Origin: Roseibium sp.
Lineage (GTDB): Bacteria > Pseudomonadota > Alphaproteobacteria > Rhizobiales > Stappiaceae
Length of the DNA stretch: 64,000 bases
Assembly: GCF_965229775.1 (NCBI RefSeq)
Contig: NZ_OZ245929.1
Span: 5,094,430 to 5,158,429, forward strand
Direction of reading: 5' to 3'
The notes below the pieces were generated by a model. It was not told the DNA's origin. It was given only the letters and a program-made list of their open reading frames with translations, and did no database searches. The position numbers and the translations under genes are program-made. Positions 43,369-52,317 of this stretch are shown in pieces. Each line of letters starts with the position of its first letter. Position 1 is the first letter of the stretch.

Positions 43369-43554
43369 CGCTTTTCTCCTTTCGGCCCCGGAATTCGGCC
43401 ACAAACCGGATTCCGTCCTTATCGGTCCGGCGGGAATTCGGTTCAAATCGTGCAGGTGCACAGTCCGACGGGACACGAGACAGACATAGAATACTGTGCA
43501 CCAGATGATAATTGCCCCCGTTTTCATTATATTCCTGTATCAAAACGAACAATC

Positions 43555-43609
43555 GACAAGAGACAAGAGACAAGAGACAAGAGACAAGAGACAAGAGACA
43601 AGAGACAAG
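43555..43609 (+). repeat. Heptanucleotide tandem repeat (GACAAGA)7-GACAAG
   Basis: Perfect repeat read directly; ends 10 nt before the LysR ATG. Confidence 0.95.
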
Positions 43610-43619
43610 GATCAACATC

Positions 43620-44516
43620 ATGCGTCTGCCGCTCGCAACCCTGGAGGTCTTCACGGCGATTGCAAATCACGGTTCACTGCGGAACGCGGCGCGCGCTCTT
43701 GGCCTGAAGCCTTCAACGGTCAGTCATCAGTTGAAGAACCTTGAAGACAGGATCGGGACTGCACTCTTCATCAGGACGACACGCAGCATCAATCTGACAG
43801 AGGCGGGCCGTGCGCTTCTGCGCGGCACGTCACCAGCCTTCGAGCAGATCGCGGAAGCCTTCGAGAGCGCCCGCACCACCGGTCATTCGGCAAGGGGAAG
43901 CTTGAAACTCGCGCTGCCCGAATACGCCTACGATCTCGTTGTCGCAGAGCTTTTGCCGTCATTTCGCAGCGCCTATCCCGAAATACACGTCGAACTCTCT
44001 CTGGCAGACGCGTTCGAAGACATCCTGGATGCCGGCCTGCACGCCGGAATACGGCTCGGCGATTTGATCGCGCAGGATATGGTCGCAATCAGGTTGACTG
44101 AACCGCTGCGGCTTGCGGTCGTTGGATCGCCCGCATATCTCGAAAAGGCGGGAGTGCCCTGTACGCCGGAAGACCTGCTGGCCCATGAATGCATCCGCTA
44201 CAGGTTTCACAGTTCCGGCGCGTTCGCACCTTGGAAGGTCGAGGGGCCGGCCGGGGCGTCGGATGTCGCGGTCACCGGCTCACTTGTCGTGAACTCGCTG
44301 TCCGTCGCCGTGGACGCGGCGCGGCGCGGCGAAGGCCTGATTTACCTCTTGCAGGATTATGTCGCGAAAGATGTTCTCGGCGGCAACCTGGTACCGGTTC
44401 TTCAGGAATTCATGCCCGAGGTACCCGGGTTTTTCCTGTACTTCCCGCGTGCCTATCGCGAGATGGTGCCGCTGAGACTGTTTGTCGACCACATTCGTCA
44501 GCACGGTGGCCAGTAG
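43620..44516 (+). CDS. LysR-family regulator (CrgA/PgrR-like)
   Basis: HTH GSLRNAARALGLKPSTVSHQLKNLE, RTTRSINLTEAG, HECIRYRF. Confidence 0.93.
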   Translation: MRLPLATLEVFTAIANHGSLRNAARALGLKPSTVSHQLKNLEDRIGTALFIRTTRSINLTEAGRALLRGTSPAFEQIAEAFESARTTGHSARGSLKLALPEYAYDLVVAELLPSFRSAYPEIHVELSLADAFEDILDAGLHAGIRLGDLIAQDMVAIRLTEPLRLAVVGSPAYLEKAGVPCTPEDLLAHECIRYRFHSSGAFAPWKVEGPAGASDVAVTGSLVVNSLSVAVDAARRGEGLIYLLQDYVAKDVLGGNLVPVLQEFMPEVPGFFLYFPRAYREMVPLRLFVDHIRQHGGQ

Positions 44517-44570: not shown

Positions 44571-44957
44571 TCAATTCTTGCAGGGAAAGTCCTGTTTCAT
44601 GGTTTCCATGAGCGCTTCACCGGCCATCATGACCTTGCGCTTGGTAAAGTCGCTGTGCACCCAGCGCATGAACGCCCAGCGCACTTCGTCCGGAATGTTC
44701 TGTTCCGGCAGGCAGATGTCCTTGCCGTCGCCGACGGCACCGGTCACCTCCAGAGCATCGACGAAACCGATAATGTACTGTTCGCACTCGATTTCGGCGG
44801 CTTGCCCCCAACGCGCATCGTTGTCGGCTTCCTGGCACGGAGACAGGAGTTCTTCGGCGGTGTAGTTCGAGTGGATGAGCAGGACGGACCCCGGGGCCGC
44901 TGCTGCGGGTGCAGTCATCAGCGTGGCTGCGATAAGGGAAATTAGGCTGAAACGCAT
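44571..44957 (-). CDS. Secreted Rap1a/Tai-fold protein
   Basis: Signal peptide; TAEELLSPC...ECEQYIIGFVD...ICLP...FPC four-Cys pattern. Confidence 0.7.
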   Translation of the reverse strand: MRFSLISLIAATLMTAPAAAAPGSVLLIHSNYTAEELLSPCQEADNDARWGQAAEIECEQYIIGFVDALEVTGAVGDGKDICLPEQNIPDEVRWAFMRWVHSDFTKRKVMMAGEALMETMKQDFPCKN

Positions 44958-45021
44958 TGGTTCGCTCCAAGGATAAGCCGGACTGTCCCCCGCACGGCCG
45001 CGTGCGGGGGACGTGTGCGCA

Positions 45022-47367
45022 TCATTGCGCGCTCTTCTTGTCGGCAAGGGCATGGACGGCCTGGTCCATGACGTCCTGGTGTTCCTCATTGCTGAGGAAT
45101 GCCGGGCTGTTGACCTTGTTCCACAAGTCCTCGTCCGTCATGTTCTGGTGGCAGCCCATGCACAGGCCCGTGCGCTCCATCTTTTCACGCATGTCCTGCG
45201 GCAGCGGACCGGTCAGCGGCCAGTGGGATCCGACGGTGACAAGCTGCTTGCCGTCCTCCGTCACGATCCGGCTGAGGTCATGATCGAGGCTCGGCACGGC
45301 CTGTGACTGCATCTGCGTCTGGTTCGGGATGATTTCACCCGTCGCCGTTTCCAGATCCACCACGAAGCCCTTGTCATAGCCCTTCATGAACCGGCCGCCC
45401 GAGATGCCATAGCCCAGTGCTTTCGGGTTGTTGTGGCAGCTCTCGCATGTACGCGCTTCACGGCCTGCGGTGTGCGGCTGTACGGCAGCATGATCAAGCC
45501 CCTTCGTGCCACCGGCGTCCGGCGTCATCCAGGTTTCATTGTGCGCTACCGTGTTGCCGTCCTTGTCGATGACCGTCGTGATCACCTGGCAGCCGGGCAT
45601 GAGCGGGCTGACGCGGCCTTCCCCGTTGATGCCGAGAGTCGGCTCTTCCCAACGCAGGTAGGAGCGTGTCTCGGCGACCTTGCCGGGGCTGGTCAGGCCA
45701 TTGGTACCCATGGCGTTGTCGGCGGTCAGCCCGTTCTCGCCGCGCGAGTTGGCATTGTTGATCCAGTCGACATCGGTCTTGCCTTCCGAATAGTCCACCG
45801 TGATGTGGCAGCCGTAGCATTGCGGTGCCCAGTCGGCATGACAGGCATAGCATTCCATGCTTTCCATGTGCTTGCCAACGCTCATCATGGCGACTTCGGC
45901 ATTCGGCGACTTCCAGTTTCCGTCAAGCGCGAGCTGGCGCAGGACCGGCACTTCGAAGTCGAGACCGGAGGCCGAGTGCAGGATGACCTTGTCACCGCGG
46001 CGGATGACGTTGCCGAGCGGGTTGCCGCGCGCGCTGAGCAGGTATCCGTCTTCCGGCTCGTAGACTTCCGCCATGTACTGCTCGGCGGTCACGTCGTCGG
46101 CCAGGCCGCGCGCCGTGTCGCCGATATCGGTGGCGTGTTCTTCCCCGTAGCCAAGCGGCAGTTCCCAGGGAAACTTGGAGACGGTTCCGTGGCAGTCCTC
46201 ACACTCGATTTCCACCTGGGCCAGGGTCGTGCCCGGCAGGTTGCCGTCACCATGCATGTCGATCGAGGTGTGGCAATCCTGGCAGAGCATGCCGCCGGCC
46301 GGGTTGCCGTCGCGCGATTCGATGGAGTGGTGAAGATCGTCTTTGACATAGACGTAGTTCTTGGTATGCAGCTTGGGTTGCTTGCCACCTTTCTCGTTGT
46401 ACGGCGACCCATAGGGGAACTCCATGATGCCCTGGTAGCTCACGCCGATCCGCTTGCCGCGGTTATGGCAGGAGTTGCAGGTCTCCGACGGAATGCCCGA
46501 ATACTCGACCTCGCCGACTTTCACCTTCGACTTGCGCGTCCCCTGCATCTGGTGGGTCAGGAGCTTACCCGGCTGGTCCTTGGCGATCGTCGGGTCACCA
46601 CCCTCGTAGAAACCGTCATTCGAGTAAGGAACGTGGCAGGACGAGCAACCGGCGCCCCGGAAGTCACCCCGCTTCTCACGGCCGGTCACGCCGACATGGC
46701 ACCTCTGGCACTGCTGGCGCGAATAGGTGATACCGGCCAAATTGGGATGCTCGGAAATCGCGTCCACATCCACTTCAGGCACCTGTTCCATGGAACTCGG
46801 CATCTGGTCCGGATGGGCCTCGATGAAGGCGACCATGTAGTCCTTGTAGGCATCGGTGCCGACGGAGGGGACATTGCCGTCCTCGTCGACCAGGTCATAA
46901 TTGCCGTAGACGGAGCGATGCGTATCGATCACGCCCCAGGACCACAGGTTGCCCTGCAGCTTGCCGGCTTCCGTGTTCATGAGAGACTTGGTCAGACGCT
47001 CGGCATAGCCGTCATGGCATTGTCCGCAGGACTTGTCGGCGATCCAGAGAGCACCTGGGTCCGGATAAAACGTGTGCGGCCCCCCGGCATCTGCCAGATC
47101 GGCCGGTGTGCCCTGGTGAGCTTCCGCTGCCGTCAGCCCTTGCGGGTTGCCGCCGTGACAGACCACGCAGCCCGCAGGGTCGCCCAGATCGGGACCCATG
47201 GCTTCGATGCTCTCCATCATCGCACCTGAGGTGAACTTCTCGATCCCTTCATGACAGGACATGCAGCCCTTTTCGGCGGCAACGGCCTGGTCGACCGTTT
47301 CGGGGACCTCTTGTGCTTGGGCCGCTCCGCACAGCAGAAGGCCCAGCGCCAGAATAAATGATCTCAC
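45022..47367 (-). CDS. Multiheme (12 CXXCH) periplasmic cytochrome c, 781 aa
   Basis: GTG start after AAGGAG; signal peptide ending AQA; CMSCH, CVVCH, CGQCH, CQRCH, CSSCH, CNSCH, CQDCH, CEDCH, CYACH, CYGCH, CESCH, CMGCH. Confidence 0.93.
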   Translation of the reverse strand: MRSFILALGLLLCGAAQAQEVPETVDQAVAAEKGCMSCHEGIEKFTSGAMMESIEAMGPDLGDPAGCVVCHGGNPQGLTAAEAHQGTPADLADAGGPHTFYPDPGALWIADKSCGQCHDGYAERLTKSLMNTEAGKLQGNLWSWGVIDTHRSVYGNYDLVDEDGNVPSVGTDAYKDYMVAFIEAHPDQMPSSMEQVPEVDVDAISEHPNLAGITYSRQQCQRCHVGVTGREKRGDFRGAGCSSCHVPYSNDGFYEGGDPTIAKDQPGKLLTHQMQGTRKSKVKVGEVEYSGIPSETCNSCHNRGKRIGVSYQGIMEFPYGSPYNEKGGKQPKLHTKNYVYVKDDLHHSIESRDGNPAGGMLCQDCHTSIDMHGDGNLPGTTLAQVEIECEDCHGTVSKFPWELPLGYGEEHATDIGDTARGLADDVTAEQYMAEVYEPEDGYLLSARGNPLGNVIRRGDKVILHSASGLDFEVPVLRQLALDGNWKSPNAEVAMMSVGKHMESMECYACHADWAPQCYGCHITVDYSEGKTDVDWINNANSRGENGLTADNAMGTNGLTSPGKVAETRSYLRWEEPTLGINGEGRVSPLMPGCQVITTVIDKDGNTVAHNETWMTPDAGGTKGLDHAAVQPHTAGREARTCESCHNNPKALGYGISGGRFMKGYDKGFVVDLETATGEIIPNQTQMQSQAVPSLDHDLSRIVTEDGKQLVTVGSHWPLTGPLPQDMREKMERTGLCMGCHQNMTDEDLWNKVNSPAFLSNEEHQDVMDQAVHALADKKSAQ

Positions 47368-47477
47368 GGACCCGACTCCTTTTGAGCTTAGTCGTAGCCT
47401 TGAGACCGTAGGACGGGTCACGGAAGCGGTTCCCTGACAATTCGCAGGAAAGGTCGATTACGCGTTTAAAGTTTCAA

Positions 47478-47514
47478 TTGCGAATATTCACAATCACGAA
47501 ATGATCTAGGTCAT
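47478..47514. promoter_or_regulatory. Two palindromes in the cytochrome/FNR divergent promoter
   Basis: TTGCGAATATTCACAA (47478-47493) and ATGAT-CTAG-GTCAT (47501-47514, 7/10 to the FNR box TTGAT-N4-ATCAA). Confidence 0.5.
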
Positions 47515-47606
47515 GGCCTGTTTGAACCGGCTTTTCTACGCTTCCCCCCAGCTGAGTGACAGGGGCCGGTGGGAGAGACCGTGCCGCACTCACGAGCGGG
47601 GCGCAT

Positions 47607-48413
47607 ATGAACAGTCACGACATCTCTATGGGTGGCAAGTTGGCATGCAGCGAAGCCATGTGCCGATCCAGGCTCTGCCAGCACGTCATGGGTGGCAATC
47701 TGGAAAAAAGGCACAAGGTTCTGCAGCGCGGAGACCGGCTCGGTCTGGGCGACGGTGCCTGCCGGAAAGTCTGGATCATCCTTCATGGTATGGCGGCGAT
47801 CTGCTACGGGCTCGCTGATGGCCGCCGGCAGATCCTCGGGCTGGAAACGAACGGCCACATCATGTGCGGCATGAACAGCGGCGGCCAGAATGGTTCCTGG
47901 ATCGAGGCCCTGAGCGAAACCGTCCTGTGCGAAATAGACCTGACAAGCCTTGGGACCGCTGCATATCCGGGCGGTCCTCGCCGGAATGGGCAACAGCTGA
48001 TCACCGAACTCTTCGCTGTCATTCATCACCGGCTGGAAGCCTGCTCTGCCCACCTCGTCACCCTTGGACGGCTCGACAGCACCGAACGCGTAACGCTGTT
48101 CCTGGTCGACATGGCGAGCCGTATCGGCCGTCCCGTCGGGCAATCGCTCTATTTCGAACTGCCCATGACGCGCGAGGACATTGCCGACTATCTGGGCCTG
48201 AACACGGAGACCATCAGCCGTGTCTTCTCCCGCCTGAAGAAGAGCAGACTGGTTCAGTTTCCGTCCCGCAGCGCGATCGCCATTCCCGATCCGAAAGCGC
48301 TCGAACGCCGGTTGCCGGTCGACATTCCGGATTTTTCATCGACGAGCCACGTCAGCAACTTCCTGTCTGCGGTCAATGCGCCTCAACCCGCGCGCGATGG
48401 AGCACTCACATGA
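47607..48413 (+). CDS. Crp/Fnr-family regulator with N-terminal Cys cluster
   Basis: DGRRQI, ALSETVLCEI, HTH MTREDIADYLGLNTETISR; ATGA overlap with ccmF. Confidence 0.88.
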   Translation: MNSHDISMGGKLACSEAMCRSRLCQHVMGGNLEKRHKVLQRGDRLGLGDGACRKVWIILHGMAAICYGLADGRRQILGLETNGHIMCGMNSGGQNGSWIEALSETVLCEIDLTSLGTAAYPGGPRRNGQQLITELFAVIHHRLEACSAHLVTLGRLDSTERVTLFLVDMASRIGRPVGQSLYFELPMTREDIADYLGLNTETISRVFSRLKKSRLVQFPSRSAIAIPDPKALERRLPVDIPDFSSTSHVSNFLSAVNAPQPARDGALT

Positions 48414-50395
48414 TCATCGAATTCGGACATTTCTGTCTCGTTCTGGCGCTGATCGTGGCGGTCTTGCAATCCGTTGTGCCCCTCTGGGGCGTCAGGACCG
48501 ACAATGCAGCGGCCATGCGCTTTGCGGACCACGCGGCGGAAATTCAGTTTCTGGCAACGGCAACAGCCTTTGCCGTGCTGACATACGCCTATGTCGTCTC
48601 CGACTTTTCGGTGCTGAACGTCGCCCTGAACAGCCACTCGGCCAAGCCGATGCTCTACAAGGTGACAGGCGTCTGGGCGAACCACGAAGGTTCGATGCTG
48701 CTCTGGGTCCTGATCCTGACGCTCTTCAGCGTGCTGATCGCCTTCTTCGGCAAGGCCATCCCGGTCAGCGTGCGTTCCATCGTCCTGGCGGTGCAGGCCA
48801 TGATCGGCGTCGGATTTCTGGCCTTTATCCTGCTGACGTCCAATCCGTTCGAACGTATTGCCAATCCGCCGCTGGATGGTCAGGGCATGAACCCGTTGCT
48901 GCAGGACCCGGGTGTCGCCTTTCATCCACCCCTGCTCTATCTCGGCTATGTCGGCTTTTCGACGGCGTTCTCCTTCGCGATTGCCGCGCTTGTGCGCGGT
49001 CAGGTCGATCCGAGCTGGGCGCGCTGGATGAGGCCCTGGATTCTCCTCGCCTGGTCAGGATTGACAGCGGGCATCGCGCTTGGCAGCTGGTGGGCCTACT
49101 ACGAGCTCGGCTGGGGCGGTTTCTGGTTCTGGGATCCGGTCGAAAACGCATCGTTCATGCCCTGGCTGCTCGGAACCGCCCTGCTGCATTCGGCGATCGT
49201 CGTCGAAAAGCGCGCAGCGCTTTTGAGCTGGACAATTCTCCTTGCCATCCTGACCTTCGCCCTCAGCCTGATCGGCACCTTCCTGGTGCGTTCGGGTATC
49301 CTGTCCTCGGTTCATGCGTTCGCCAACGATCCCGAGCGCGGGGTCTTCATCCTGTTTCTTCTGGCCCTTGCCATCGGTGGCGCACTCACGCTGTTTGCCC
49401 TCCGGGCCTCCGAGATCAGGGAGGGCGGAACCTTCGCGACCGTTTCGCGCGAAACCGGGCTGCTCATGAACAATGTCCTCCTGAGCGCCTGCACGGTGAC
49501 GGTCTTCGTGGGCACGCTGTTCCCGCTCTTCCTGGACGTGGCGACCAGCGACAAGATCACGGTCGGTGCGCCCTACTTCAACAGGACGTTCCTGCCGATA
49601 TTCGCCGGCGTCGTCCTGCTTGCGGCGATCGGCCCGTTCCTCTCCTGGAAGCGCGCCAATGTCCGCAGACTGCGCAAGGACGTCCTGGTCACGAGCCTGG
49701 TCACCGCCCTTGTCGGTATCGTGCTGCTCATTCTGTTCGGAGTGCGCGACCCGGTCAGCGTTTTCGGCGTTGCCATCGCGATCTTCCTGGGTGTTGCGAC
49801 CCTGTTTGATCTTGCCAGGCGTGCCGGAGCCGGAACGGCCAGGTGGTCCAGCATACCCCGCCGGCTTGCAGGCCTGCCGCTGTCCGCATGGGGCCTTTGC
49901 CTGGGTCATCTCGGCCTGGCTGTCGCCTCTGCCGGTGTCGTCGCCGCTTCACTCTGGAGCATCGAGGAAATTCAGACCGTGACACCGGGCATTCCGGTTG
50001 ACGTCGGCTCCTATCAGTACACGCTTGCCGGGGTCGAAAACGGCATGGGACCGAACTACCGCACCTCCGTTGCAACGGTTAGGGTCAGCAGAAACGGCCA
50101 GGAAGTCACCACCCTTCATCCGGAACGCCGCTGGTACCCGGTGGAGCAGAAACCAACCACGGAAGCCGGCATTGAAACGCGCTGGCATGGCGATTTCTAC
50201 GCCGTGCTGGGCGATCCGGCCGCAAACGGCCAGTTCGTGACCCGCTTCTACTACAATCCCGGGGTTCCCTGGATGTGGCTGGGAGCGTTCCTGATTTCGA
50301 TATCCGGTCTTGTTTCCCTCGCCGACCGGCGGCTGCGCCTTGGGGTTCCAACACCCTCGCGCAAGGCGTCCCTGCACCCCCAACCGGCGGAATAG
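48410..50395 (+). CDS. ccmF: Heme lyase CcmF/NrfE family
   Basis: NHEGSMLLW, HPPLLYLGY, WGGFWFWDPVENAS, SVHAF. Confidence 0.95.
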   Translation: MIIEFGHFCLVLALIVAVLQSVVPLWGVRTDNAAAMRFADHAAEIQFLATATAFAVLTYAYVVSDFSVLNVALNSHSAKPMLYKVTGVWANHEGSMLLWVLILTLFSVLIAFFGKAIPVSVRSIVLAVQAMIGVGFLAFILLTSNPFERIANPPLDGQGMNPLLQDPGVAFHPPLLYLGYVGFSTAFSFAIAALVRGQVDPSWARWMRPWILLAWSGLTAGIALGSWWAYYELGWGGFWFWDPVENASFMPWLLGTALLHSAIVVEKRAALLSWTILLAILTFALSLIGTFLVRSGILSSVHAFANDPERGVFILFLLALAIGGALTLFALRASEIREGGTFATVSRETGLLMNNVLLSACTVTVFVGTLFPLFLDVATSDKITVGAPYFNRTFLPIFAGVVLLAAIGPFLSWKRANVRRLRKDVLVTSLVTALVGIVLLILFGVRDPVSVFGVAIAIFLGVATLFDLARRAGAGTARWSSIPRRLAGLPLSAWGLCLGHLGLAVASAGVVAASLWSIEEIQTVTPGIPVDVGSYQYTLAGVENGMGPNYRTSVATVRVSRNGQEVTTLHPERRWYPVEQKPTTEAGIETRWHGDFYAVLGDPAANGQFVTRFYYNPGVPWMWLGAFLISISGLVSLADRRLRLGVPTPSRKASLHPQPAE

Positions 50396-50404
50396 GAGGT
50401 AGTG

Positions 50405-50893
50405 ATGCGCGCTCTGTTCGGGTCATTCCTTGCCGGATTGCTGTCGATCCTGGCCATACTCGCAATGCTGTCCGGTCCGGCCCTGGCGGTTGACGGTGAC
50501 GAGATGTTTGCCGATCCGGTCAGGGAAGCACGTGCGCGGGATGTCGGACGCCAGCTGCGATGCCTCGTCTGCCAGAACCAGTCGATTTTCGATTCCAACT
50601 CGGGCCTCGCCAAGGATCTGCGTGTTCTGGTCAGAACGCGCATGACCGAGGGCGATTCGGATGCCGAAATCCTCTCCTACATCGCCGACCGCTACGGCGA
50701 CTACGTGCTGTTACAGCCTAGATTTTCAATCGGCAACGGCATTCTCTGGGCGGCGCCCATCCTGGCCCTGCTGTTCGGACTCGGCGCGATGCTGCTTTAC
50801 CTGAAGTCGCGCGGCACGGGCCGCCCGGACGTTTCCTTGACTGAAAACGAGCGCGAAGCCGCGCGCAAACTTCTGCAGGAAGGACGGCCATGA
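50405..50893 (+). CDS. ccmH: Cytochrome c biogenesis protein CcmH/NrfF
   Basis: LRCLVCQNQSI, RYGDYVL. Confidence 0.93.
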   Translation: MRALFGSFLAGLLSILAILAMLSGPALAVDGDEMFADPVREARARDVGRQLRCLVCQNQSIFDSNSGLAKDLRVLVRTRMTEGDSDAEILSYIADRYGDYVLLQPRFSIGNGILWAAPILALLFGLGAMLLYLKSRGTGRPDVSLTENEREAARKLLQEGRP

Positions 50894-52317
50894 CCATGTT
50901 CTGGATACTCTCTTCAACTGCTCTTTTTCTGTGCGCTGCTTGGCTGGCCTATCCCTTCCTGCGAAAAACGGAGATAGAGCGCGATGAAACCGACGCAGCG
51001 CTCTCCATCTATCGGGATCAGGCCGACGAAATCCGGCGCGACCTGGAGTCCGGTCTGATTTCGAGACAGGAATCCGATGCCGCCCAGCGCGAGATCGAGG
51101 CCCGGGCGCTGAAAGCAGCGCGCCATTCGGTGGGCGGCATGTCGGTCACCCGCAGATCCCCCCTGACAGCAGGTGTCGTCGTTGCCGCGCTCATTGCCGG
51201 CTCTGCATCAGGTTATGCCTGGCTCGGCACGGCAGGAGCCGAGGACCGCCCGCTGGCTGCCCGCAAAACGGAGGCACTTGTGCAAAAGGCGCAAGCCGGA
51301 GATATCGGCAGCCGGATCGAGCTCCTCGTCGAAACGGTGCAGAAACATCCGGACTCCTTCGAAGACTGGTGGCTGCTGGCAAGAAGCTACGCGGCGACCG
51401 GCGACAATGCCTCCGCCGCCGATGCCTACCGCCGGGCCGCGGAGCTTTCCGGAAATGATCCGGGTGTCCTGTCCGCCTATGCCGAGGCCATGACGCTTGC
51501 GAACGGCAACAAGGTGCCACAGGCAGCAAGGATCCTGTTTCAGCAGATCCGCGCCGAAACGGGCGATCCGCGTGCGCGCTACTATCTGGCGCTCGCCAAG
51601 GCACAGGCGCAGGACTTTGACGGTGCACTTCAGGACTGGGCAGCGCTCGCCGCCGAATCCGATCCCAATGCCCCCTGGATGCCGCTCGTGAGGCGTGACA
51701 TCGTCAACATGGCCCGCTTTACCGAACGCGATGTTTCGGAGTATCTGCCGGACGCCAGCCGTGCGGAGCTCAACAAGGCGGCCGGAAAACAGACGGACGC
51801 CGACCAGTTCGCGCTTCTGCGCCGGGCAACCGCCCTGGACAAACAGCTGGAGGATGATCCCTCGGATTACAAAGGGTGGCAGGAACTCGCCCAGATCCGG
51901 GCTGCGCTCGGCGATACGCAGAAAGCCAAAGCCGCTCTTGAAGCCGCCAGAGACCGCTTTGCCGCTGCCCCCTTCATCCTGTCGAAACTCGATGCGACTG
52001 CAGCTGACCTGGGTCTGGATCTGGTTCCAGGCACCAGGACCACCAACGGCCCCAGCCAGGACGACATCGCGGCAGCCCAGGAGATGTCCGCCGAAGATCA
52101 AGCCCGGATGATCGAGGGCATGGTCGCCGGTCTTGCGGCCAAGCTGGAGGACAATCCCGACAATCCGGATGGTTGGGTGATGCTCGTGCGCTCCTATTCC
52201 CACCTGGGAGAAACCGGAAAGGCCGCGGACGCAATGGCAAGGGCAAGTGCGCAATATTCAGACAATCCCGAGATCCTGGCAAAGATCCGGGAGAACGTTG
52301 CCAGTCTCGTGCAATAG
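50890..52317 (+). CDS. ccmI: Cytochrome c biogenesis protein CcmI/CycH (TPR)
   Basis: IYRDQADEIRRDLESGLI, TPR repeats; ATGA overlap with ccmH. Confidence 0.9.
   Translation: MTMFWILSSTALFLCAAWLAYPFLRKTEIERDETDAALSIYRDQADEIRRDLESGLISRQESDAAQREIEARALKAARHSVGGMSVTRRSPLTAGVVVAALIAGSASGYAWLGTAGAEDRPLAARKTEALVQKAQAGDIGSRIELLVETVQKHPDSFEDWWLLARSYAATGDNASAADAYRRAAELSGNDPGVLSAYAEAMTLANGNKVPQAARILFQQIRAETGDPRARYYLALAKAQAQDFDGALQDWAALAAESDPNAPWMPLVRRDIVNMARFTERDVSEYLPDASRAELNKAAGKQTDADQFALLRRATALDKQLEDDPSDYKGWQELAQIRAALGDTQKAKAALEAARDRFAAAPFILSKLDATAADLGLDLVPGTRTTNGPSQDDIAAAQEMSAEDQARMIEGMVAGLAAKLEDNPDNPDGWVMLVRSYSHLGETGKAADAMARASAQYSDNPEILAKIRENVASLVQ

What the first reader, a model, noticed from the sequence alone, without database searches (positions are those of the whole stretch)
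44571..52317. Self-contained anaerobic redox module: 12-heme cytochrome, Rap1a-fold partner, FNR-type sensor and private heme lyase
Seen: [Rap1a-like <- 12-heme cyt c] divergent from [Fnr-ccmF-ccmH-ccmI], with ATGA couplings and an FNR-like box in between. Known: large multiheme cytochromes with dedicated lyases (NrfA/NrfEFG, MccA/SirA) are terminal reductases. This protein lacks NrfA's CXXCK and the CX15CH of MccA/SirA, and no quinol dehydrogenase or porin is adjacent. Inference: an uncharacterised O2-regulated periplasmic redox enzyme in a marine alphaproteobacterium. This is the strongest candidate for a new system in the window.
Basis: partly seen in the sequence, partly recalled or inferred. 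Interest (0 to 1): 0.8.

Follow-up and report, generated by a model that had tools for sequence, protein, structure and literature searches.

The report
Low-oxygen twelve-heme cytochrome module
A marine Roseibium carries a compact gene set for a secreted twelve-heme protein, a small partner with an "immunity protein" fold, an oxygen-sensor-type regulator and a second heme-attachment machine; many marine bacteria have the same set, and its chemical job is still unknown.

Summary
On the minus strand lie a Sec-exported cytochrome with 12 CXXCH motifs (45022-47367) and a Tai4/Rap1a-fold protein (44571-44960). Divergent from them is an operon of an FNR-type regulator, ccmF, ccmH and ccmI (47607-52317).

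- **Lyase:** ccmFHI is a second set. A housekeeping ccmI-E-F-H lies 1.3 Mb away. All 39 cytochrome-adjacent CcmF form one clade. In Stappiaceae, 11 of 11 cytochrome carriers have the extra CcmF.
- **Linkage:** the partner is adjacent in 77 of 80 species loci, the regulator in 55 and the dedicated lyase in about 40.
- **Not obligatory:** some carriers have only one CcmF. No unusual heme motif was found. A distant branch instead carries a fused System II synthase next to the cytochrome.
- **Regulation:** two conserved Crp/Fnr-type boxes lie between the operons. One of them occurs only where the local regulator is present.
- **Relatives:** the cytochrome is a distant relative of the uncharacterised Geobacter ExtM. 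It has no relative among solved structures.
- **Candidate site:** a lone cysteine co-varies with heme 10.

Best reading: an accessory periplasmic oxidoreductase module induced at low oxygen. The substrate is unknown and catalysis is unproven.

The parts
44571..44960 (-). Small periplasmic partner with the Tai4/Rap1a fold (129 aa): signal peptide, four conserved Cys, motif CQExDNDxR..ExECEQY..G...C.P...N..DE.RWA..W
   Evidence: Pfam PF18602, 49.4 bits, E 7e-13. AF2 model pLDDT 88.6. The Foldseek PDB top 7 hits are all Tai4 (6ije, 6ijf) or Rap1a (3zfi, 4bi8), with probability 1.0 and target TM 0.67-0.73. It lies directly downstream of the cytochrome in 77 of 80 loci. dN/dS 0.03-0.07.
44987..45010 (-). 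GC-rich stem-loop (CCCCCGCAC-GCGGCC-GTGCGGGGG) in the 61-nt cyt-rap spacer, with no T-run after it
   Evidence: Read from the sequence. Spacers of most orthologous loci also fold strongly, about -0.4 to -0.9 kcal/mol per nt. Its function was not tested.
45022..47367 (-). Periplasmic 12-heme c-type cytochrome (781 aa) of the ExtM superfamily, with a beta-rich heme-poor domain (about residues 440-630) and a lone Cys593
   Evidence: 12 CXXCH. Pfam multiheme families, and NCBIfam ExtM at 231 bits over residues 216-672. 264 species loci at 69-100% identity. dN/dS 0.01-0.02. AF2 pLDDT 75, pTM 0.78. No PDB relative. Cys593 co-varies with heme 10.
47434..47447 (.). Box 2, a Crp/Fnr-architecture palindrome proximal to the cytochrome promoter. 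Here it is a one-arm variant, CTGACAATTCGCAG; the family consensus is CTGAC-N4-GTCAG.
   Evidence: A perfect CTGA-N6-TCAG lies 70-140 bp upstream of cyt in 42 of 53 loci with the local regulator and in 0 of 22 without it (Fisher 4e-11). Shuffled expectation is 0.001 per locus.
47501..47514 (.). Box 1, an FNR/FixK-type box. Here it is ATGATCTAGGTCAT; the consensus TTGAT-N4-ATCAA is seen in other genera.
   Evidence: It is conserved in position. 34 of 75 loci score at least 9/10 and 57 of 75 at least 8/10, against 0.7% and 8.6% of shuffles. It is not significant in this window alone.
47607..48413 (+). FNR-type regulator (268 aa) and first gene of the lyase operon. It has N-terminal Cys14/Cys19/Cys24, a central Cys in 'VLCEIDL', and the recognition helix 'ETISR'.
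   Evidence: Pfam HTH_Crp_2, Crp and cNMP_binding. NCBIfam FixK, FnrL and Fnr score below their cut-offs. Cys pattern across 43 orthologs. It is divergent from cyt in 55 of 80 loci. It overlaps ccmF by ATGA.
48410..50395 (+). Module-specific CcmF paralog (661 aa)
   Evidence: Pfam CcmF_C and Cytochrom_C_asm; TIGR00353 at 650 bits. It is 50% identical to the genome's housekeeping CcmF. It forms a monophyletic clade with the other 38 cytochrome-adjacent CcmF (SH-aLRT 100). The WWD motif and four His residues are kept.
50402..50893 (+). CcmH paralog (163 aa) with the LRCLVCQ thiol motif
   Evidence: Pfam CcmH, E 3e-45. 44% identical to the housekeeping CcmH.
50890..52317 (+). CcmI paralog (475 aa): N-terminal CcmI membrane module plus a long TPR domain
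   Evidence: TIGR03142 and PF23914. 29% identical to the housekeeping CcmI. ATGA overlap with ccmH.

Best explanation
This is an accessory redox module spread by horizontal transfer, and it probably switches on when oxygen runs low. Steps marked (shown) rest on tool results. Steps marked (inferred) do not.

1. (shown) The module encodes a soluble periplasmic 12-heme cytochrome of the ExtM superfamily and a Tai4/Rap1a-fold protein. The two are almost always encoded together.
2. (shown) A Crp/Fnr-family regulator with FNR-like cysteines heads a divergent operon, translationally coupled to a paralogous CcmF-CcmH-CcmI heme lyase.
3. (shown) Two conserved Crp/Fnr-type boxes lie between the operons.
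4. (inferred) Under low O2, an FNR-type activator bound at Box 1 turns on the regulator-lyase operon. The local regulator bound at Box 2 turns on cyt-rap. Extra lyase is therefore made exactly when a protein needing 12 heme attachments is produced.
5. (inferred) The lyase supplies capacity, timing or substrate-specific chaperoning through its long CcmI TPR domain. It does not supply a new attachment chemistry.
6. (inferred) The cytochrome and partner form a periplasmic complex. The complex exchanges electrons with the general c-type carriers and the bc1 complex, so it needs no quinol dehydrogenase of its own.
7. (inferred) The complex acts as an oxidoreductase on a small soluble substrate. The reactive site is at or near heme 10 and the lone Cys593, possibly a His/Cys-ligated heme. 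The partner caps or tunes that site, or tethers the enzyme.

The substrate is unknown. Sulfur, nitrogen, selenium or iodine oxyanions are the obvious candidates.
For: Gene content and signal peptides.

Second lyase:
- A housekeeping ccmI-E-F-H lies at C1:3844134-3848276, only 50/44/29% identical to the window's F/H/I.
- The 39 cytochrome-adjacent CcmF form one clade with SH-aLRT 100.
- In 121 Stappiaceae genomes, 11 of 11 cytochrome carriers have the extra CcmF beside the cytochrome. Only 5 of 110 non-carriers have a second CcmF (Fisher 3e-12).

Linkage to maturation recurs in other forms:
- In Rhodospirillales the regulator-cyt-rap trio sits between ccmC and ccmD of the only ccm operon.
- In a 45%-identical branch, a fused ResB-CcsA synthase follows the cytochrome in 8 loci; of the other four full-length close relatives one lacks downstream sequence and two, perhaps three, lack it.

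Regulator and boxes:
- Cys pattern and the E--SR recognition helix.
- Box 1 enrichment and the strict co-occurrence of Box 2 with the regulator.

Signs of an enzyme more than a wire:
- dN/dS of 0.01-0.02, and 70-80% identity between Alpha- and Gammaproteobacteria, including the long heme-free segments.
- A beta-rich domain carrying hemes 9 and 10.
- Cys593 present with heme 10 in 48 representatives and absent with it in 15, against 9 discordant cases (Fisher 1.6e-8).
Against: - No catalytic site could be shown. There are enough conserved His and Met residues for all 12 hemes to be six-coordinate.
- No expression data. RNA runs held only one 246-nt contig across the cyt-rap junction.
- The lyase is dispensable in some carriers. 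Genomes G001-G004 have a single CcmF.
- Nothing in the cytochrome sequence separates loci with and without the dedicated lyase.
- The dedicated CcmF has only six conservative clade-specific changes.
- In this genome both boxes are degenerate.
- The co-variation count is not corrected for phylogeny.
Confidence: 0.5

Rival explanations
1. The cytochrome is not an enzyme. It is a periplasmic electron hub or capacitor that buffers or relays electrons between the membrane and other periplasmic reductases when oxygen is scarce. The partner is an adaptor.
For: Enough conserved His/Met candidates exist for 12 six-coordinate hemes. Pfam hits are to c3, c7 and MtrC-type electron-transfer modules. The nearest named relative, ExtM, belongs to a cytochrome bc-type electron-transfer cluster (PMC5877670). 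No substrate-related gene is conserved nearby.
Against: Purifying selection is extreme over the heme-free segments, and a conserved beta-rich domain is present. The lone Cys co-varies with one heme. There is no porin or outer-membrane partner. A dedicated regulator and lyase would be an unusual investment for a relay protein.
Confidence: 0.25
2. The dedicated lyase exists because one heme site of this cytochrome cannot be handled, or is handled poorly, by ordinary CcmFH. This would be a substrate-specific lyase in the manner of NrfEFG for CXXCK or CcsA1 for the CX15CH of MccA.
For: Two non-homologous maturation systems are independently linked to the family: System I CcmFHI here, and a fused System II ResB-CcsA in the P0125 branch. 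The dedicated CcmF clade has a long stem branch. Hemes 9 and 10 are only six residues apart (CYACHADWAPQCYGCH).
Against: All motifs are canonical CXXCH here and in P0125, which lacks heme 10 altogether. Carriers with a single CcmF exist. No cytochrome residue tracks lyase presence. The catalytic residues of CcmF are unchanged.
Confidence: 0.2
3. The small protein is a working type VI immunity protein that merely happens to lie next to the cytochrome.
For: The Pfam and fold matches to Rap1a/Tai4 are clear.
Against: It is adjacent to the cytochrome in 77 of 80 species across several orders, with flanks that otherwise differ. No amidase effector gene is in the locus. It has its own strongly conserved motif and dN/dS of 0.03-0.07.
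Confidence: 0.03

Closest known systems
ExtM (GSU2935) of the Geobacter sulfurreducens extHIJKLMNOPQS cluster (NCBIfam NF040943)
   Same: Both have twelve CXXCH. They share a homologous core covering hemes 4-11 (residues 216-672 against profile positions 127-510 of 599, 231 bits). Intermediate relatives bridge the two families at 350-430 bits. ExtM itself is biochemically uncharacterised (PMC5877670).
   Different: The score is far below the 800-bit equivalog cut-off. The window's protein is soluble with a signal peptide, not membrane-associated. It has no Rieske/cytochrome b partners, porin, rhodanese or selenoprotein beside it. Its partner is a Tai4/Rap1a-fold protein, and it comes with an FNR-type regulator and CcmFHI.
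NrfA with its NrfEFG lyase, and MccA/SirA with its dedicated CcsA1 synthase
   Same: Each is a multiheme periplasmic protein encoded with its own paralogous heme lyase. The lyase trio here (CcmF-like, CcmH-like, TPR CcmI-like, without CcmE or CcmG) has the same composition as NrfE/F/G. The setting is anaerobic, FNR-type regulation.
   Different: There is no CXXCK or CX15CH motif. CcmF scores below the NrfE equivalog cut-off (630 against 927). There is no sequence or fold similarity to NrfA or MccA. The lyase is not needed in all carriers.
Tai4/Rap1a type VI amidase-immunity proteins (PF18602; PDB 6ije, 3zfi, 4bi8)
   Same: A small periplasmic all-helical fold with disulfides. Target TM is 0.67-0.73 and the Pfam score is above the gathering cut-off.
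   Different: Only 17-19% identical. No effector or type VI context is in the locus. It is invariably paired with a cytochrome and has its own conserved acidic motif.
FNR / FnrL / FixK oxygen-responsive regulators
   Same: Crp-type domains, an N-terminal Cys triad plus a central Cys in the 'CEI' context of E. coli FNR Cys122, and the E--SR recognition helix (the E. coli comparison is from memory).
   Different: It scores below all NCBIfam equivalog cut-offs. The Cys spacing is C-X4-C-X4-C here and C-X2-C-X4-C in most orthologs. It is co-transcribed with a heme lyase. It is associated with a second box type, CTGAC-N4-GTCAG.

Membership tests
ExtM (NF040943 equivalog) | Whole-protein score at or above the curated cut-off of 800 bits | tested here: not met
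   231.2 bits, partial coverage.
ExtM (NF040943 equivalog) | Twelve c-type heme motifs | tested here: met
   12 CXXCH. ExtM is described as a 12-heme protein in PMC5877670.
ExtM (NF040943 equivalog) | Encoded with ExtN/O/P/Q/S (cytochrome bc-type partners) and the ExtI porin | tested here: not met
   None is present in the flanks or in the 80 related loci.
NrfA / NrfEFG | CXXCK active-site heme motif in the cytochrome | tested here: not met
   No CXXCK.
NrfA / NrfEFG | NrfE equivalog score (TIGR03145 cut-off 927) | tested here: not met
   630.5 bits. The general CcmF/NrfE subfamily TIGR00353 is met at 650 against 569.
MccA / SirA | CX15CH (or CX17CH) heme motif served by a dedicated synthase | tested here: not met
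   No such motif. Only one non-motif Cys is present in the mature protein.
System I heme lyase CcmF/H/I | CcmF WWD motif and four conserved His, the CcmH LRCxxC motif, and the CcmI N-terminal module plus TPR | tested here: met
   WGGFWFWDPVEN at residue 235; H172, H260, H302 and H500 are shared with housekeeping CcmF. LRCLVCQ in CcmH. TIGR03142 and PF23914 in CcmI.
FNR-type [4Fe-4S] oxygen sensors | Crp-family HTH and beta-roll domains | tested here: met
   PF13545, PF00325 and PF00027.
FNR-type [4Fe-4S] oxygen sensors | Three N-terminal Cys plus one central Cys as cluster ligands | tested here: inconclusive
   The cysteines are present and conserved, but the spacing differs from E. coli FNR. 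Cluster binding cannot be tested here.
FNR-type [4Fe-4S] oxygen sensors | NCBIfam equivalog cut-offs (FnrL 300, Fnr 228, FixK 300) | tested here: not met
   66.4, 58.5 and 86.5 bits.
Tai4/Rap1a immunity proteins (PF18602) | Pfam gathering score and fold | tested here: met
   49.4 bits against a cut-off of 27.7. Foldseek probability 1.0 to 6ije, 3zfi and 4bi8.
Tai4/Rap1a immunity proteins (PF18602) | Adjacent cognate Tae4/Ssp1 amidase effector or type VI genes | tested here: not met
   None in the locus or in the conserved neighbourhood. The rest of the genome was not searched for type VI genes.
MtrC/OmcA outer-membrane cytochromes | Lipoprotein signal and a porin-cytochrome partner | tested here: not met
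   Only a marginal PF22113 domain hit (32 bits against 30). The signal peptide is of the AQA|QE type, and the Cys at position 13 is not conserved. No porin is present.
Octaheme enzymes (HAO, OTR, ONR) and other solved multiheme enzymes | Sequence or fold similarity to a solved member | tested here: not met
   The phmmer search of PDB gave nothing relevant. Foldseek against PDB gave no match below E = 2.

The most novel reading that the evidence does not exclude
The family is a new class of periplasmic multiheme enzyme. An eleven-heme wire feeds a Cys-ligated or Cys-assisted heme 10 in a fold with no solved relative. A protein borrowed from the type VI immunity fold caps or gates the site. Correct assembly depends on a specialised heme lyase, which would explain why System I and System II maturation genes were recruited independently. 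The enzyme would turn over a marine sulfur, nitrogen, selenium or iodine species at the oxic-anoxic boundary.
Probability: 0.2. Interest if true: 0.85.

Novelty: new variant of a known kind. Interest (0 to 1): 0.6.

Why it matters
The cytochrome is present in at least 264 species representatives of marine Alpha- and Gammaproteobacteria, and it is among the most strongly constrained genes in its neighbourhood. Even so, no paper, solved structure or curated family describes it. If it is a respiratory or detoxifying enzyme, a reaction in coastal and sediment redox cycling is currently missing from genome-based models.

The module also offers three tractable questions:
- Why does a cytochrome with only canonical CXXCH motifs travel with its own CcmFHI clade?
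- What does an immunity-protein fold do beside a cytochrome?
- How do two Crp/Fnr-type boxes divide the work between a global and a local regulator?

Several carriers are cultured type strains, so all three can be tested directly.

Tried and rejected
- **Own error, corrected.** My first regulator query started one base early (47606), so tblastn compared out-of-frame translations. This gave a false picture of a hyper-variable regulator found in only 8 loci. With the true start, 47607, it is found in 55 of 80 loci at 97% to 33% identity.
- **RNA evidence.** Of 13 runs, four were laid on the stretch. One 246-nt contig crosses the cyt-rap junction (44927-45172). This is too little to conclude expression or co-transcription.
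- **Solved relatives of the cytochrome.** The PDB sequence search and Foldseek against PDB found none.
- **Hidden amidase or peptidase domain.** I asked whether the beta-rich domain hides a domain that a Tai4-like protein would inhibit. A Pfam scan at E up to 10 gave nothing.
- **NrfG/CcmI-like chaperone in other branches.** The TPR protein that follows the cytochrome in other branches gave only generic TPR hits.
- **Residues tracking the lyase.** No cytochrome residue distinguishes loci with and without the dedicated lyase.
- **Plasmid carriage.** None in PLSDB.
- **Neighbourhoods of distant relatives** (P0121-P0126, P0138). These are heterogeneous: alternative complex III plus oxidase, MMPL, TonB receptor. 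No common partner emerged apart from the CcsBA synthase in the P0125 branch.
- **Literature.** Five searches found no description of this family.
- **Model coordinates** are not exposed, so heme-ligand geometry could not be measured.
Full report
**What is there**

The window is a chromosomal stretch of a Roseibium sp. Database twins of the cytochrome are named Roseibium, and one complete Roseibium MAG is 100% identical.

Between a LysR gene and selO lie two divergent units.

- On the minus strand is a 781-aa protein (45022-47367). It has a GTG start, as judged by the 781-aa homologs, and a signal peptide ending AQA|QE. It has exactly twelve CXXCH and no CXXCK, CX3-4CH or CX11/15/17CH.
- A 61-nt spacer follows, carrying a GC-rich hairpin. 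Then comes a 129-aa exported protein (44571-44960) that matches Pfam Rap1a end to end.
- On the plus strand are a 268-aa Crp/Fnr-family regulator (47607-48413), ccmF (48410-50395), ccmH (50402-50893) and ccmI (50890-52317).
- ATGA overlaps occur at regulator/ccmF and ccmH/ccmI. The gap at ccmF/ccmH is 6 nt.

The flanks encode thiolase, dehydrogenases, fasciclin, SnoaL and LysR on one side. On the other they encode SelO, TetR, PspA and an acyltransferase/acyl-ACP synthetase. No quinol dehydrogenase or porin is adjacent.

**The heme lyase is a second, module-specific set**

The genome has two CcmF genes. The other lies 1.3 Mb away in a canonical ccmI-ccmE-ccmF-ccmH cluster. It is only 50/44/29% identical to the window's F/H/I.

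In a tree of 53 CcmF sequences, all 39 that lie divergently next to the cytochrome form one clade (SH-aLRT 100, stem 0.5). These come from Stappiaceae, Roseobacteraceae, Paracoccaceae, Rhodovibrionaceae, Hyphomicrobiaceae and other families. The housekeeping CcmF of the same genomes fall on the other side.

Across 121 Stappiaceae species genomes, 11 carry the cytochrome, and all 11 are Roseibium. All 11 have the extra CcmF beside it. Only 5 of 110 non-carriers have a second CcmF, and it is of another type (Fisher 3e-12).

The paralog keeps the WWD motif and the four conserved histidines. It differs from housekeeping CcmF by only six conservative fixed changes.

**The lyase is not obligatory, and no odd heme motif explains it**

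- Four carrier genomes have a single CcmF.
- In two of them, both Rhodospirillales, the regulator-cyt-partner trio sits inside the only ccm operon, exactly between ccmC and ccmD-E-F-G-H-I.
- No cytochrome residue separates loci with and without the dedicated lyase.
- A CX4CH variant at heme 3 is confined to Aliiruegeria and Tropicimonas.

Even so, the link to maturation recurs in another form. In a branch 45% identical to the window's protein, a fused ResB-CcsA (System II) synthase directly follows the gene in 8 loci. That branch has 11 canonical hemes and no heme 10. Of the other four full-length close relatives, one has no downstream sequence and two, perhaps three, lack it.

Two unrelated maturation systems have therefore been recruited to the same cytochrome family. 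My preferred reading is capacity, timing and chaperoning for a 12-heme substrate. A hidden specificity requirement remains a live rival.

**How conserved is the module?**

A scan of one genome per species found 264 loci encoding the cytochrome, and the best 80 (69-100% identity) were studied. They come from Rhodobacterales, Hyphomicrobiales, Rhodospirillales and Kiloniellales, plus some Gammaproteobacteria such as Woeseia, Thiotrichales and Chromatiales.

| Component | Loci of 80 |
|---|---|
| Tai4/Rap1a-fold partner directly downstream | 77 |
| Regulator next to the cytochrome | 55 |
| ccmFHI near the cytochrome | 47 |
| ccmFHI of the dedicated divergent type | 39, plus two loci cut within ccmF |

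Nothing else is conserved around it. No copy is on a PLSDB plasmid.

Against close Roseibium relatives, dN/dS is 0.01-0.02 for the cytochrome, 0.03-0.07 for the partner, 0.04-0.05 for CcmF and 0.06-0.15 for CcmI.

**Regulation**

The regulator has Crp-type domains and an N-terminal Cys triad. The spacing is C-X4-C-X4-C in Roseibium and C-X2-C-X4-C in most orthologs. It also has a central Cys in 'VLCEIDL'. From my memory of the E. coli FNR sequence, this aligns with 'MVCEIPF', which holds Cys122. The recognition helix 'ETISR' has FNR's E--SR pattern. It scores below every NCBIfam equivalog cut-off.

Two palindromes with Crp/Fnr architecture lie between the operons.

- **Box 1** is TTGAT-N4-ATCAA. 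It scores at least 9/10 in 34 of 75 loci, against 0.7% of shuffles. In Roseibium it is the variant ATGAT-N4-(A/G)TCAT, at 47501-47514 here.
- **Box 2** is CTGAC-N4-GTCAG and lies 70-140 bp upstream of the cytochrome start. A perfect copy occurs in 42 of 53 loci that have the local regulator and in none of 22 that lack it (Fisher 4e-11; chance about 0.001 per locus). Here it is a one-arm variant at 47434-47447.

If each box is taken as centred near -41.5 of a class II promoter, the geometry fits two divergent promoters. Box 1 would serve the regulator-lyase operon, with a leader of about 58 nt. Box 2 would serve cyt-rap, with a leader of about 32 nt. This suggests a cascade: a global FNR-type activator, or autoregulation, turns on the local regulator plus lyase, which then turns on the cytochrome. 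The cascade is inference.

**What the cytochrome is related to**

NCBIfam's only substantial hit is ExtM. It scores 231 bits against a cut-off of 800, over residues 216-672.

An exhaustive search of 1.84 billion cluster representatives found 1363 relatives. The marine family collapses into a single 50% cluster. More distant, membrane-anchored relatives score 350-430 bits against ExtM over its full length. The window's protein is therefore an outlying soluble branch of an ExtM superfamily. ExtM is a 12-heme, 68-kDa protein of the Geobacter ext cluster and is itself uncharacterised (PMC5877670).

There is no PDB sequence relative. The AF2 model (pLDDT 75, pTM 0.78) has no Foldseek match in PDB. 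The model shows a beta-rich domain at about residues 440-630 that carries hemes 9 and 10.

**A candidate site**

Eleven of the twelve heme motifs are invariant or nearly so across 27 full-length relatives. Heme 10 (C517xxCH) is lost in some.

The only non-motif Cys of the mature protein is Cys593, in the context 'MPGCQV'. Its presence tracks heme 10 across 72 cluster representatives:

| | Cys593 present | Cys593 absent |
|---|---|---|
| Heme 10 present | 48 | 7 |
| Heme 10 absent | 2 | 15 |

Fisher's test gives 1.6e-8, not corrected for phylogeny. His632 is invariant in all of them.

This fits a His/Cys-ligated or Cys-assisted heme 10, as in TsdA, SoxA or DsrJ (a comparison from my own knowledge). 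However, there are also enough conserved His and Met residues for all hemes to be six-coordinate, and I could not measure the geometry.

**The partner**

The AF2 model (pLDDT 88.6) matches only Tai4 and Rap1a structures with confidence. The top seven hits have probability 1.0, target TM 0.67-0.73 and 17-19% identity.

The protein has four conserved cysteines and a distinctive acidic motif. No amidase effector is nearby. I read it as an immunity-type binding fold recruited as a subunit or cap of the cytochrome. This is inferred from strict adjacency only.

**Verdict**

'Enzyme' is unproven, the six-gene linkage holds in about half of the carriers, and the lyase is not essential to the family.

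Earlier notes of this scan on other genomes reached the same ExtM-like, substrate-unknown reading. They are leads, not independent support.

- the demonstration of the lyase clade and its co-inheritance with the cytochrome;
- the insertion of the trio into the sole ccm operon in Rhodospirillales;
- the independent System II linkage;
- Box 2 and its strict tie to the local regulator;
- the wider Cys593/heme 10 count.

Noticed in passing
window 44987-45010 (minus strand): A 9-bp GC stem with a 6-nt loop lies in the cyt-rap spacer, with no T-run after it. Most orthologous spacers also fold strongly. It may set the cyt:partner ratio or protect the upstream message.
   Followed up: partly
window 47434-47447, and about 70-140 bp upstream of the cytochrome in L006-L045, L054, L055, L061, L074, L082: The palindrome CTGAC-N4-GTCAG is found only where the local FNR-type regulator is present (42 of 53 loci against 0 of 22). 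It is probably the regulator's own operator, distinct from the canonical FNR box.
   Followed up: yes
L052, L056 (also L057, L066, L067, L068): In these Rhodospirillales loci the cytochrome-partner pair lies inside the ccm cluster, in the order ccmA-B-C | regulator (where one was found) | cyt-rap | ccmD-E-F-G-H-I. In L052 and L056, the two genomes checked, this is the only ccm operon.
   Followed up: yes
L085, L098-L100, L102-L104, L107: A branch 45% identical to the window's protein, with 11 hemes and neither heme 10 nor Cys593, is followed by a fused ResB-CcsA System II cytochrome synthase. It is often preceded by an AraC regulator.
   Followed up: partly
L013, L014, L017, L018, L022, L023, L026: In Aliiruegeria and Tropicimonas, heme 3 has CX4CH (CGQSACH) instead of CXXCH. 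This looks like a local variant.
   Followed up: no
window 43512-43620: The long ORF upstream of LysR reads through a repeated 'RQETRDK' stretch, a perfect heptanucleotide DNA repeat just before the likely LysR start.
   Followed up: no
genomes G020, G079, G087, G112, G121 (Stappiaceae without the cytochrome): Five non-carrier genomes have a second CcmF of a different type (361-382 bits). What it serves is unknown.
   Followed up: no
L083 (relative P0121, 59% identical): This relative has a C-terminal coiled-coil and membrane anchor. It lies upstream of a TPR gene, a heme-copper oxidase subunit I and alternative-complex-III-like genes.
   Followed up: no
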